From the IMG/VR virus record IMGVR_UViG_3300028864_000017: 64,000 bases of DNA. One strand, 5' to 3'. The DNA comes from a virus. Taxonomy: Duplodnaviria; Caudoviricetes. Every line of letters starts with the position of its first letter. Within the stretch, counting starts at the first letter, position 1. A program made the translations under genes and the position numbers. Positions 19,853 through 21,344 of this stretch are shown here, in pieces. The notes under the pieces were generated by a model, which was not told the origin of the DNA, did no database searches, and saw only the letters and a program-made list of their open reading frames with translations.

Positions 19853-19890
19853 AAAAAACTCAGTTCTTAAAAATAAGAACTGAGTTTTTT
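19853..19890 (+). terminator. attenuator-type terminator 2
   Basis: aaaaactcagttctta/taagaactgagttttt stem; 5' arm complementary to 19814-19821. Confidence 0.8.
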
Positions 19891-19933
19891 ATTTTTAAAT
19901 GCTCTTTGAAATACTAGATAATGAATAATAAAT

Positions 19934-20016
19934 GGGAGTAATGCTCAAATTGGTCAGGCGCAAAACTGTAAATTTTGTAACCTTTTAGGTCGTCAGTTCG
20001 AATCTGGCTGCTCCCA
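19934..20016 (+). tRNA. tRNA-Tyr(GTA)
   Basis: caaaa-ctGTAaa-ttttg; variable arm; TTCGAAT. Confidence 0.9.
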
Positions 20017-20026
20017 CAAAAAACAC

Positions 20027-20098
20027 GATGCGTTCGTATATCGGAAAGTACTCTAGGTTTTCAACCTAGCAAGATGAGTTCAACTCTCATACGCATTA
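20027..20098 (+). tRNA. tRNA-Glu(TTC)
   Basis: ctagg-ttTTCaa-cctag. Confidence 0.85.
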
Positions 20099-20106
20099 CA
20101 AAAAAT

Positions 20107-20179
20107 GGGATATAGGTCAAATGGTTAAGATGTCACCCCGTCACGGTGCACGGAGCGAGTTCGAATCTCGTATATCCCG
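20107..20179 (+). tRNA. tRNA-Asp(GTC)
   Basis: cacc-ccGTCac-ggtg; short variable loop. Confidence 0.85.
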
Positions 20180-20202
20180 CTTATTATCAAAAAATTAAAA
20201 AT

Positions 20203-20290
20203 GCATTGGTTGCTTTAGTCGGTCGAAAAGTCTGGTCTGTTAAACCAGTAAGAGTAATCTTCAACGTAGGTTCGAATCCTATCCAGTGCG
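20203..20290 (+). tRNA. atypical tRNA with GTT (Asn) anticodon and long variable arm
   Basis: GCATTGG/CCAGTGC acceptor, G73, ctggt-ctGTTaa-accag, V-arm aaga-gtaa-tctt. Confidence 0.75.
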
Positions 20291-20296
20291 CAAAAA

Positions 20297-20368
20297 GGGA
20301 GTGTAGCTCAAAGGTAGAGCGTTTCGCTGTTAACGAAAGTGTTGGGATGTCGCAATTCCCCACTCCCG
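20297..20368 (+). tRNA. tRNA-Asn(GTT)
   Basis: tttcg-ctGTTaa-cgaaa; short variable loop; non-consensus T-loop (gtcgcaa). Confidence 0.8.
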
Positions 20369-20448
20369 CGAATAAATGATTAACTTTAAACTTTAATCTT
20401 TTTTAATATTATATATTTTTATATATACAATAAAAATATAAATAAATT

Positions 20449-21273
20449 ATGGAAAGCATTAAAACTAAAATATTATCATTAAGAAAAGAAGGAAAAACAT
20501 ACAATGAAATATCAGAATTATTAAATTGTTCAAAAGGTACAATATCTTATCATTGTAAAAAATTATATAATAATATTGAATTAAATAAAAAAAACACAAA
20601 ATTATCAAATTTAAAAAAATTAAAAAATATACCAAATATAGATTTTGGTGATGAGATATCTGATGAGATTTTTAAAAAAGTTATTGAATATCGAATAAAT
20701 GGTAATACATATGAAGAAATAATAGAAAAAACTAAATTATCTTTAGATAAAATTAAAAAAATATGCAGATTAAATAATATCAATGATGGTAATTATAAAA
20801 AAAATAATTATTGTAAAATATATGAAAACGTTAATAATGATGACGTTATTGAAATGCAAAAATACTATGATGAATGTAAAAGTACAAGAAAAGTATCTAA
20901 AAAATTCAATATTGGTAGATATCAAATATCTAAAATTTTAATTATAAATAAAAAAGAAAAATTATCTAAAGAAGAGTATAAAATAAAAAGAAAAAATGAT
21001 ATTGTAAATAATGTTATTAGTTGGAGAAAAGATAAAAAAAGGAAACTTGTTGAATATAAAGGAGGAAAATGCGAAAGGTGTGGATATGATAAATGTATAG
21101 ATGTATTTGATTTTCATCATAAAGATCCTACTCAAAAAGATTTTGGAATAAGTGCAAAATCTTATTCATATGAAAGATTAAAAAAAGAAGTTGATAAATG
21201 TATGTTAGTGTGTAAAAATTGTCACACAGAAATACATTATGAAATAAAAAATAAAAATGGTTCTGGCGCATAA
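20449..21273 (+). CDS. HNH homing endonuclease with N-terminal HTH repeats
   Basis: GGKCERCGY...FDFHHKDP...CMLVCKNCHTEIH; two HTH-like segments; free-standing in tRNA cluster. Confidence 0.9.
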   Translation: MESIKTKILSLRKEGKTYNEISELLNCSKGTISYHCKKLYNNIELNKKNTKLSNLKKLKNIPNIDFGDEISDEIFKKVIEYRINGNTYEEIIEKTKLSLDKIKKICRLNNINDGNYKKNNYCKIYENVNNDDVIEMQKYYDECKSTRKVSKKFNIGRYQISKILIINKKEKLSKEEYKIKRKNDIVNNVISWRKDKKRKLVEYKGGKCERCGYDKCIDVFDFHHKDPTQKDFGISAKSYSYERLKKEVDKCMLVCKNCHTEIHYEIKNKNGSGA

Positions 21274-21344
21274 CGGCTGGTGTACCTGACTGTCACTCAG
21301 GCTTCTCGTAAGGGATATAGGGAATTCGACTTTCCTCAGAACCG
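21259..21344 (+). tRNA. atypical tRNA with GTC (Asp) anticodon and long variable arm
   Basis: GGTTCTG/CAGAACC acceptor, G73, cctga-ctGTCac-tcagg, V-arm tctc-gtaa-ggga. Confidence 0.75.

What the first reader, a model, noticed from the sequence alone, without database searches (positions are those of the whole stretch)
20203..20290. Asn-anticodon tRNA on a Ser-like long-variable-arm body
The anticodon is GTT, yet the RNA has a class II variable arm (aaga-gtaa-tctt), G73, a Ser-like D-loop (agtcggtcgaaaag) and one extra nucleotide between acceptor and D stems. A normal tRNA-Asn lies 6 nt downstream. Bacterial SerRS recognises the long arm and ignores the anticodon, so this could insert Ser at AAC/AAU codons (missense recoding, as for described allo-tRNAs) or be a nuclease-resistant Asn tRNA.
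Basis: partly seen in the sequence, partly recalled or inferred. Interest (0 to 1): 0.75.

Follow-up and report, generated by a model that had tools for sequence, protein, structure and literature searches.

The report
Phage asparagine tRNA with extra arm
This is a real, conserved phage tRNA gene with an asparagine anticodon and the long side-arm that textbooks reserve for serine, leucine and tyrosine tRNAs; it most likely still delivers asparagine, so it is an odd and apparently undescribed tRNA shape, not a device that rewrites the genetic code.

Summary
Positions 20203-20290 (+) encode an 88-nt tRNA with anticodon GTT, G73, a 3-nt acceptor/D linker, an enlarged D loop and a 17-nt variable region with a 4-bp hairpin.

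It is one of a large phage family. A pattern scan returned more than 117 viral contigs, with 102 distinct long-arm tRNA-Asn sequences. 527 isolate records (T5-like phages) carry one, annotated plainly as tRNA-Asn. An anticodon-blind scan for this gene's own D-arm found 31 loci, and all carry GTT. All five helices covary, including the extra arm.

The serine reading is not supported for this gene:
- G73 is also the asparagine discriminator.
- Pair 2-71 is C-G, whereas 51 of 51 co-resident phage tRNA-Ser have G-C.
- The arm has 4 unpaired 3' bases, against 2 or fewer in 48 of 51 tRNA-Ser.
- Long-armed Cys, Ile, Met, Lys and His tRNAs keep their own discriminators.
- The long-arm form is the only Asn tRNA in 14 of 17 rich arrays.
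- AAT is 7.6% of this phage's codons.

The most likely function is Asn decoding. What the arm does is unknown; it may protect against host tRNA nucleases. This scan has found the same design before on other DNA, and I found no paper describing it.

The parts
20203..20290 (+). Long-variable-arm tRNA-Asn(GUU), G1 to G73, 88 nt, no encoded CCA
   Evidence: ARAGORN; Rfam RF00005 at 38.9 bits; fold; covariation in 34 homologues
20239..20241 (+). Anticodon GTT in the 7-nt loop CUGUUAA. The sequence from U36 to position 41 is UAAACC, and the U31-A39 pair is unique among the 34 subfamily members.
   Evidence: GTT is invariant in 31 of 31 loci of the anticodon-blind scan.
20249..20265 (+). Variable region of 17 nt: U, 4-bp stem AAGA/UCUU, GNRA loop GUAA, unpaired tail CAAC
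   Evidence: ARAGORN bracket parse. Helix 4 is 91.9% paired and all 4 pairs change on both sides. The first and last C of the tail are invariant.
20210..20231 (+). 3-nt linker UUG, 4-bp D stem CUUU/AAAG, 10-nt D loop with 4 nt after GG, and U26
   Evidence: D-stem pairs covary: C-G with U-A, and U-A with G-C.
20290..20290 (+). Discriminator G73
   Evidence: G73 is found in 100 of 118 long-arm and 45 of 50 class I phage Asn tRNAs.
20297..20369 (+). Class I tRNA-Asn(GUU) 6 nt downstream, with G73 and a deviant T arm
   Evidence: Rfam 51.8 bits. The same long-then-short tandem occurs in relatives L119, L126 and L134.
19934..20369 (+). Tightly spaced tRNA run Tyr-Glu-Asp-Asn(long)-Asn, probably one transcript. 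A terminator-like hairpin lies at 19853-19890 and a promoter-like site at 19894-19922.
21259..21344 (+). Candidate companion long-arm tRNA-Asp(GUC) with C38 and G73. It folds as a cloverleaf, but neither ARAGORN nor Rfam calls it.
   Evidence: It is absent. Long-arm Asp tRNAs exist in other phages.

Best explanation
This is a functional phage tRNA-Asn. It is transcribed with its neighbours (Tyr-Glu-Asp-Asn-Asn), gets its CCA end from a CCA-adding enzyme, is charged with asparagine by the host AsnRS through the GUU anticodon and G73, and reads AAU and AAC. Those codons make up 8.7% of this 24%-GC phage's coding sequence.

Its body belongs to a widespread, phage-associated design. A short hairpin sits in the variable loop, flanked by 1 nt on the 5' side and 4 nt on the 3' side, and the D loop is enlarged to match.

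Shown here: the gene is real, the structure is conserved, the anticodon is invariant, the Asn determinants are present, and the form is the sole Asn tRNA in other phages.

Inferred, not shown: charging by AsnRS, and any role for the arm. My favoured guess for the arm is that it makes the phage's Asn decoder a poor substrate for host tRNA-cutting defences. Keeping two differently shaped Asn tRNAs would then spread the risk.
For: 1. It is a real, constrained RNA.

2. It belongs to a large family. In those contigs ARAGORN called 114 long Asn tRNAs, 102 of them distinct. In 596 Gb of prokaryote genomes, only 20 of the first 120 hits are such tRNAs. About 5 of these are archaeal intron-bearing genes. 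The rest lie in loci holding 4-23 tRNAs.

3. The anticodon-blind scan for this gene's D-arm gave 31 loci, all with GTT.

4. Both known major bacterial Asn determinants, the anticodon and G73, are present (PMC9976931).

5. Acceptor pairs of long-arm Asn mirror those of class I Asn, not Ser. At pair 1-72, long-arm Asn has U-A 54 and G-C 38, and class I Asn has U-A 22 and G-C 24. Pair 2-71 is variable.

6. Long arms on other class I isotypes keep the cognate discriminator: Cys U 16/16, Ile A 14/14, Met A 12/12, Lys A 6/6, His C 3/3. The arm therefore does not bring Ser identity with it.

7. It is the sole Asn decoder elsewhere:
- In 14 of 17 loci with 15 or more isotypes the long-arm form is the only Asn tRNA, and all 14 have G73.
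- The same holds in the 20-isotype set of Escherichia phage TrudiGerster.
- It also holds in Cellulophaga phage phi4:1, a member of the same subfamily.
- The nearest relatives L118 and L137 have no short Asn in their fetched arrays.

8. In T5-like phages it occupies the slot where T5 has a class I Asn.

9. AAT is the second most used codon, at 7.6%. Reading it as Ser would damage almost every protein.
Against: - No aminoacylation data exist for any member that I could find.
- The GenBank record AJ604531 notes that the T5-like long-arm tRNA-Asn becomes an amber suppressor when given a CUA anticodon. The T5 record says its class I Asn does not. So some synthetase can charge a long-arm Asn body without the Asn anticodon. 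The inserted amino acid is not stated.
- This gene has G1-C72, A3-U70, G73 and a long arm, which are four of the features SerRS uses.
- It sits beside a class I Asn, so it is not strictly needed for Asn decoding here.
- AsnRS is a class II enzyme that approaches from the variable-loop side (from memory). Its tolerance of the arm is assumed from distribution, not shown.
- Only about 20% of the phage genome is available, so a phage-encoded synthetase cannot be excluded.
Confidence: 0.8

Rival explanations
1. Serine-inserting or dual-identity tRNA. SerRS recognises the long arm plus G73 and charges part or all of the pool, so AAU and AAC are read partly as Ser.
For: - It has a long arm, G73, G1-C72 and A3-U70.
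- SerRS ignores the anticodon (PMC9976931).
- The GenBank note says a CUA version of a T5-like long-arm Asn is an amber suppressor, while T5's class I Asn is not.
- A minority sub-clade of long-arm GUU tRNAs has G1-C72, G2-C71 and U73, like the co-resident tRNA-Ser(UGA). These more often sit beside a class I Asn with G73: 12 of 19, against 43 of 118 for the G73 forms.
- Precedents exist in allo-tRNAs (PMC5389517) and nematode nev-tRNAs (PMC3333845).
Against: - This gene has C2-G71, while G2-C71 is found in 51 of 51 co-resident phage tRNA-Ser.
- Its arm is a 4-bp stem with 4 unpaired 3' bases. tRNA-Ser have 2 or fewer in 48 of 51 and mostly longer stems.
- GTT is invariant with this body.
- G73 long-arm forms are the only Asn tRNA in complete sets.
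- Long arms on Cys, Ile, Met, Lys and His keep their cognate discriminators.
- Asn codons are 8.7% of the phage's codons.
- The full AsnRS determinants are present, so AsnRS should compete well.
Confidence: 0.08
2. The RNA is not primarily a decoder. It acts as a decoy or inhibitor that soaks up a host tRNA-targeting nuclease or modifier, while the class I neighbour does the decoding.
For: - It is redundant with the class I Asn 6 nt downstream.
- This gene's sequence from U36 to position 41, UAAACC, equals the AriB-resistant site of T5 tRNA-Lys quoted in that paper. It is unique among 34 subfamily members.
Against: - The same design is the sole Asn tRNA in many phages, so the family must decode.
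- The acceptor stem, T loop and anticodon loop are fully canonical for translation.
- No nuclease or PARIS link is shown for this host.
Confidence: 0.07
3. Decaying duplicate or pseudogene. tRNAscan-based annotation labels the phi4:1 homologue 'tRNA-OTHER / pseudo'.
For: The pseudo label in KC821632, the modest Rfam score of 38.9 bits, and the redundancy with a neighbour.
Against: - There is strong compensatory covariation in all five helices across 34 distinct sequences.
- The anticodon loop and T loop are invariant.
- The nearest relative differs by compensatory pair changes only.
- The low score is explained by the arm and the extra linker base, which the general model penalises.
Confidence: 0.03

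Closest known systems
Canonical class I bacterial and phage tRNA-Asn(GUU), e.g. phage T5 tRNA-Asn (NC_005859 33952-34029) and the gene at 20297-20369 of this window
   Same: GUU anticodon in a CUGUUAA loop, G73, 7/5 acceptor/T architecture, a standard T loop, and the same place in phage tRNA arrays.
   Different: 17-nt variable region with a 4-bp hairpin instead of 4-5 nt, 2 extra D-loop bases after GG, and 3 rather than 2 bases between the acceptor and D stems.
Long-arm tRNA-Asn of T5-like phages (Salmonella phage 5 AJ604531, Escherichia phage TrudiGerster NC_105114, Proteus phage PM135; 527 isolate records)
   Same: An Asn anticodon on a tRNA with a variable hairpin capped by a GNRA loop, an unpaired 3' tail, and G73. 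It is annotated tRNA-Asn and is the only Asn tRNA of a full set.
   Different: It is a different subfamily: a 2-nt linker, a 7-nt D loop, a shorter 13-nt variable region and an encoded CCA. BLAST finds no similarity to this gene.
Subfamily member in Cellulophaga phage phi4:1 (KC821632 90400-90481), a phage of Bacteroidota
   Same: The same body: UUG linker, CNNU/ANNG D stem, 10-nt D loop, 1+4+4+4+4 variable region, and G73. It is 76.7% identical over 73 nt.
   Different: It has U1-A72 where this gene has G1-C72. It is the only Asn tRNA of that phage, and the record annotates it as a pseudo-tRNA.
Allo-tRNAs (Mukai et al., NAR 2017, PMC5389517)
   Same: A long variable arm combined with anticodons of other amino acids, G73 or U73, and a proposal of Ser charging and missense or nonsense suppression. 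Some occur in phages.
   Different: Allo-tRNAs are defined by an 8/4 or 9/3 acceptor/T branch and a long D stem with a tetraloop. This gene is 7/5 with a 4-bp D stem and a 10-nt loop. An 8th acceptor pair would be U-U.
Nematode nev-tRNAs (PMC3333845)
   Same: Class II bodies that carry anticodons of class I amino acids.
   Different: They are eukaryotic and Leu-type bodies, reported to decode an alternative code for leucine. Here the acceptor end and discriminator match the anticodon's own amino acid.
Phage tRNA variants that escape tRNA-cleaving defences (T5 tRNA-Lys/Thr/Asn against PARIS AriB, PMC12409363; the anticodon-loop mutation hypothesis, PMC10264068)
   Same: A phage copy of a tRNA species that defence nucleases target. 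E. coli tRNA-Asn(GUU) is an AriB target. This gene also carries the sequence UAAACC from U36 to position 41, as in resistant T5 tRNA-Lys.
   Different: The published escape changes are point substitutions in the anticodon stem-loop. No paper I found mentions an added variable arm, and T5's own tRNA-Asn is class I.

Membership tests
tRNA (Rfam RF00005) | Cloverleaf with acceptor, D, anticodon and T arms, scoring above the family cut-off | tested here: met
   38.9 bits against a cut-off of 29; ARAGORN call; covariation in all helices
Bacterial tRNA-Asn identity set | Anticodon G34 U35 U36 | tested here: met
   GTT at 20239-20241. The determinant is taken from PMC9976931.
Bacterial tRNA-Asn identity set | Discriminator G73 | tested here: met
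   G at 20290. 45 of 50 class I phage Asn tRNAs also have G73.
Bacterial tRNA-Asn identity set | U1-A72, needed only for the Asp-tRNA-Asn amidotransferase route | tested here: not met
   G1-C72. The class I neighbour also has G1-C72, which fits direct charging by AsnRS. 54 of 96 long-arm Asn tRNAs elsewhere have U1-A72.
Bacterial tRNA-Asn identity set | Actual charging with asparagine | not testable with these tools
   Needs an aminoacylation assay
Class II (long variable arm) tRNA architecture | Variable region of 10 nt or more that forms a stem-loop | tested here: met
   17 nt with a 4-bp stem and a GUAA loop. The stem covaries.
Bacterial tRNA-Ser | G2-C71, stated as conserved in bacterial tRNA-Ser (PMC9976931) | tested here: not met
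   C2-G71 here. 51 of 51 co-resident phage tRNA-Ser have G2-C71.
Bacterial tRNA-Ser | Variable-arm geometry: longer stem and at most 1-2 unpaired bases on its 3' side | tested here: not met
   4 unpaired 3' bases and a 4-bp stem here. tRNA-Ser have 2 or fewer in 48 of 51, and a stem of 5 bp or more in 28 of 51.
Bacterial tRNA-Ser | G73 (or U73) discriminator and G1-C72 | tested here: met
   G73 is shared with Asn and Asp, so it does not discriminate.
Bacterial tRNA-Ser | A serine anticodon in this gene or its homologues | tested here: not met
   GTT in 31 of 31 loci of the anticodon-blind body scan
Allo-tRNA (PMC5389517) | 8/4 or 9/3 acceptor/T-stem branch | tested here: not met
   7/5 by ARAGORN and by covariation. 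The 8th pair would be U-U.
Allo-tRNA (PMC5389517) | Long D stem with a tetraloop, tRNA-Sec-like | tested here: not met
   4-bp D stem and 10-nt D loop with a standard A14, G15 and G18G19

The most novel reading that the evidence does not exclude
The long arm plus G73 gives this tRNA a second identity. SerRS charges a fraction of the pool, so the phage deliberately reads some AAU and AAC codons as serine. The clearest candidates for this are the related sub-clade with G1-C72, G2-C71 and U73, which always travels with a normal tRNA-Asn. That would be a natural, phage-borne missense decoder.
Probability: 0.06. Interest if true: 0.85.

Novelty: new variant of a known kind. Interest (0 to 1): 0.5.

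Why it matters
Textbooks and tRNA gene finders assume that, in bacteria and their phages, only Leu, Ser, Tyr and Sec tRNAs carry a long variable arm.

The data here show that phages carry long-armed Asn tRNAs, and also long-armed Asp, Cys, Ile, Thr, Met and Lys tRNAs. These keep their own identity marks. They are sometimes the only decoder of their codons, yet annotation sometimes labels them pseudogenes.

If the arm protects against tRNA-cutting defences, it is a new kind of counter-defence. If it does not, it shows how much extra structure AsnRS, EF-Tu and the ribosome tolerate. That is useful for engineering orthogonal or tagged tRNAs.

For this window the practical message is that the standard code applies.

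Tried and rejected
- Megablast of the whole tRNA region against isolate phages gave only a 60-nt hit elsewhere in the array.
- Sensitive BLAST with the tRNA alone found only Cellulophaga phage phi4:1.
It needs a deleted acceptor base and loses to the 7-bp reading, which covaries.
- An alternative 5-bp D stem (G-U plus CUUU/AAAG, with no base 26) is not supported. One member, L059, has C and A at those two positions.
- A recent tandem duplication of the neighbouring class I Asn is rejected, because the two sequences are unrelated outside the anticodon loop.
- Origin from the co-resident tRNA-Ser in phi4:1 shows no particular similarity.
- Phage-encoded synthetase: no Asp/Asn/Lys-type synthetase domain (PF00152) occurs in the 143-kb record. 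The PF00587 hit is a HisRS-like core, not SerRS.
- Seven literature searches and look-ups in six papers found no description of long-armed tRNA-Asn in phages.

Full report
**What is there**

The window is a 24%-GC stretch of a 143-kb IMG/VR phage record that CheckV rates about 20% complete.

ARAGORN calls tRNA-Asn(gtt) at 20203-20291. Rfam's tRNA model scores it 38.9 bits, E 9.7e-6. The minimum-energy fold is a five-helix cloverleaf.

Read directly from the sequence, the gene has:
- a 7-bp acceptor stem and G73
- three bases (UUG) before a 4-bp D stem
- a 10-nt D loop with four bases after G18G19
- a standard anticodon arm with loop CUGUUAA
- a 17-nt variable region made of U, a 4-bp stem, a GUAA loop and an unpaired CAAC tail
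- a standard T arm
- no encoded CCA

It lies fourth in a tight run Tyr-Glu-Asp-Asn-Asn (19934-20369). A terminator-like hairpin and a promoter-like site lie just upstream.

**It belongs to a large phage family**

ARAGORN called 114 long (82 nt or more) Asn tRNAs there, 102 of them distinct.

The same pattern in 596 Gb of prokaryote genomes mostly gave chance matches. Only 20 of the first 120 hits are such tRNAs. About five of these are archaeal intron-bearing genes. The rest lie in loci with 4-23 tRNAs, which is to say phage-like arrays.

Among cultured phages, 527 records carry an 83-85-nt tRNA-Asn with a variable hairpin, annotated simply as tRNA-Asn. These are T5-like phages of Escherichia, Salmonella, Klebsiella and Proteus. 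T5 itself has a class I Asn in the same slot.

**Its own subfamily**

Many hits share this gene's D-arm. A scan for that D-arm, with the anticodon left free, returned 31 loci. All 31 carry GTT.

The nearest relatives (L119, L126, L134) have the same acceptor stem. They differ by compensatory changes in the anticodon and variable stems, and they too are followed within 5 nt by a class I Asn.

One member is in Cellulophaga phage phi4:1, a phage of Bacteroidota. The record labels it a pseudo-tRNA.

I aligned 34 distinct members:
- 97.5% of pair cells are paired, against 72.5% in shuffles (0 of 500 reach the observed value) and 33-50% when partners are slid.
- 21 of 25 pairs change on both sides.
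- All four pairs of the extra arm change on both sides.
- The first and last C of the 3' tail are invariant. The last C presumably pairs with G15, as C48 does in ordinary tRNAs (inference).

The layout, one base then a hairpin then four bases, looks like a class I five-base variable loop with a hairpin inserted after its first base (inference).

**Which amino acid?**

Published work gives the anticodon plus G73 as the bacterial Asn determinants, with U1-A72 needed only by the amidotransferase. For bacterial Ser it gives the long arm, with G1-C72 and G2-C71 conserved and G73 of moderate weight (PMC9976931).

I compared tRNAs that live in the same phage arrays.

| Feature | This gene | Long-arm Asn (n=96) | Class I Asn (n=50) | tRNA-Ser (n=51) |
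|---|---|---|---|---|
| Pair 1-72 | G-C | U-A 54, G-C 38 | U-A 22, G-C 24 | G-C 42 |
| Pair 2-71 | C-G | G-C 38, C-G 36, others 22 | C-G 23, G-C 20 | G-C 51 |
| Pair 3-70 | A-U | varied | varied | A-U 45 |
| Unpaired bases 3' of the arm | 4 | 3-4 in 70 | not applicable | 2 or fewer in 48 |
| Arm stem length | 4 bp | 3-4 bp in 92 | not applicable | 5 bp or more in 28 |

So the acceptor end follows Asn, not Ser.

Long arms also occur on Cys, Ile, Thr, Met, Asp, Lys, Glu, Val, Trp, His and Pro tRNAs in these arrays. Each keeps its own discriminator: Cys U 16/16, Ile A 14/14, Met A 12/12, Lys A 6/6, His C 3/3. The arm is therefore a general phage decoration that does not bring G73 with it. G73 here is the Asn and Asp discriminator.

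The enlarged D loop tracks arm length in every isotype. Four or more bases follow GG in 59% of long Asn, 64% of other long class I tRNAs and 56% of Ser, against 14% of short Asn and 22% of other short class I tRNAs. It is a class II architectural feature, not a Ser mark.

**Use in other phages**

- In 14 of 17 fetched loci holding 15 or more isotypes, the long-arm gene is the only Asn tRNA, and all 14 have G73.
- The same is true of the 20-isotype set of Escherichia phage TrudiGerster.
- It is also true of phi4:1, whose array otherwise lacks only Cys.
- The nearest relatives L118 and L137 have the long form as the only Asn tRNA in their fetched arrays, and a 91-nt Asp as the only Asp tRNA.

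A phage that carries a near-complete tRNA set would not replace its only Asn decoder with a Ser-inserting one.

In this phage AAT is the second most used codon (7.6%) and AAC adds 1.05%. GAT, GAA, TAT, ATA and ATT follow closely. These are the codons read by the duplicated tRNAs of this array. Supply of Asn decoders is the simplest reason for two genes.

**What keeps the rival alive**

- The record AJ604531 notes that its long-arm tRNA-Asn becomes an amber suppressor when given CUA. The T5 record says its class I Asn does not. So some anticodon-independent synthetase can charge that body.
- A minority of long-arm GUU tRNAs, some within this subfamily, have G1-C72, G2-C71 and U73, like the co-resident tRNA-Ser(UGA). 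They more often sit beside a class I Asn with G73: 12 of 19, against 43 of 118. None is the sole Asn tRNA of a rich array. For those the Ser idea deserves a test.
- This window's gene has G73 and C2-G71, so it falls with the Asn-like majority.

I put Asn decoding at about 0.8 and Ser or dual charging at about 0.08.

**What the arm is for**

This is unknown.

tRNA-Asn(GUU) is a target of the PARIS nuclease AriB. Phage T5 tRNA-Lys, tRNA-Thr and tRNA-Asn together neutralise PARIS (PMC12409363). That paper gives the AriB site as the sequence running from U36, UAAUC, with the cut after C40. It gives the resistant T5 tRNA-Lys site as UAAACC from U36 to position 41.

This gene reads UAAACC over those positions, through a U31-A39 pair that is unique among the 34 subfamily members. 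Its relatives read UAAUC. This is suggestive only. No published escape variant involves the variable arm. One natural subfamily member (L121) has lost the hairpin but keeps the rest of the body.

**Comparison and novelty**

The gene is a tRNA and meets both major Asn determinants.
- It is not an allo-tRNA, because it is 7/5 rather than 8/4 or 9/3 and has a normal D arm (PMC5389517).
- It is not like nematode nev-tRNAs, where the body's identity overrides the anticodon (PMC3333845).
- Members have sat in GenBank since 2004 as 'tRNA-Asn' or 'pseudo'. I found no paper describing the design.
- Earlier agents of this scan reached the same reading on other phages.

I rate it a new variant of a known kind. 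It is structurally surprising and probably ordinary in function.

**Limits**

- Loci are partial stretches of contigs.
- Variable-arm geometry rests on ARAGORN's parse.
- Identity rules come mainly from E. coli.
- Only about a fifth of the phage genome is available.

Noticed in passing
window:11904-12542 (+): A 212-aa ORF is a HisRS-like class II catalytic core. It matches TIGR00442 hisS at E 1.3e-41 and 143 bits, below the curated cut-off, and also hits HisZ models. It has no anticodon-binding domain. It lies just upstream of the run of small proteins that share an MKIRNGFVSNSSSSSF start. No tRNA-His was found in the record.
   Followed up: partly
window:20297-20369 (+): The 'normal' class I tRNA-Asn has a deviant T arm: a U-U at the 53-61 position and a loop GUCGCAA instead of UUCGAAU. 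ARAGORN misses it. Its homologue in relatives L119, L126 and L134 has an ordinary T arm. In this phage the long-arm gene is therefore the more canonical of the two in that region.
   Followed up: partly
window:21259-21344 (+): A candidate long-arm tRNA-Asp(GUC) with C38, G73, a GUAA-capped variable hairpin and G at position 8. It folds as a cloverleaf, but neither ARAGORN nor Rfam calls it, even at E up to 1. It overlaps the last 15 nt of the ORF 20449-21273. Long-arm Asp tRNAs with the same layout exist in 34 other viral contigs (14 distinct sequences confirmed).
   Followed up: partly
L077:1440-1526, L091:209-295, L122:734-821, L128:2634-2721, L130:2755-2842, L085:13362-13447, L132:2971-3062: A sub-clade of long-arm GUU tRNAs has G1-C72, G2-C71, often A3-U70, and U73. 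That is the acceptor end of the tRNA-Ser(UGA) encoded in the same loci. Most sit near a class I tRNA-Asn with G73. These are the best candidates for a Ser-charged Asn decoder.
   Followed up: partly
L121:1295-1375 (-): A member of this gene's subfamily, with the same linker and D arm, has a variable region of only 9 nt. The hairpin has been lost. It sits next to a second, unrelated long-arm Asn and has a third, class I Asn 2 kb away.
   Followed up: no
loci L001-L137 (viral contigs): Long variable arms (10 nt or more) occur on many class I isotypes in phage arrays: Cys 16, Ile 14, Thr 13, Met 12, Asp 6, Lys 6, Glu 4, Val 4, Trp 3, His 3 and Pro 3 distinct genes. Each carries the discriminator typical of its own isotype.
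   Followed up: partly
window:20449-21273 (+): A 274-aa protein with an N-terminal helix-turn-helix (HTH_28, E 1.2e-8) and no other recognised domain lies between the two tRNA clusters. T5-type phages carry homing endonucleases in that position.
   Followed up: no
window:20241-20246 (+): The sequence from U36 to position 41 is UAAACC, identical to the AriB-resistant site quoted for T5 tRNA-Lys in PMC12409363. 24 of 34 subfamily members have U at position 39, as in the cleavable E. coli tRNA-Asn site.
   Followed up: partly
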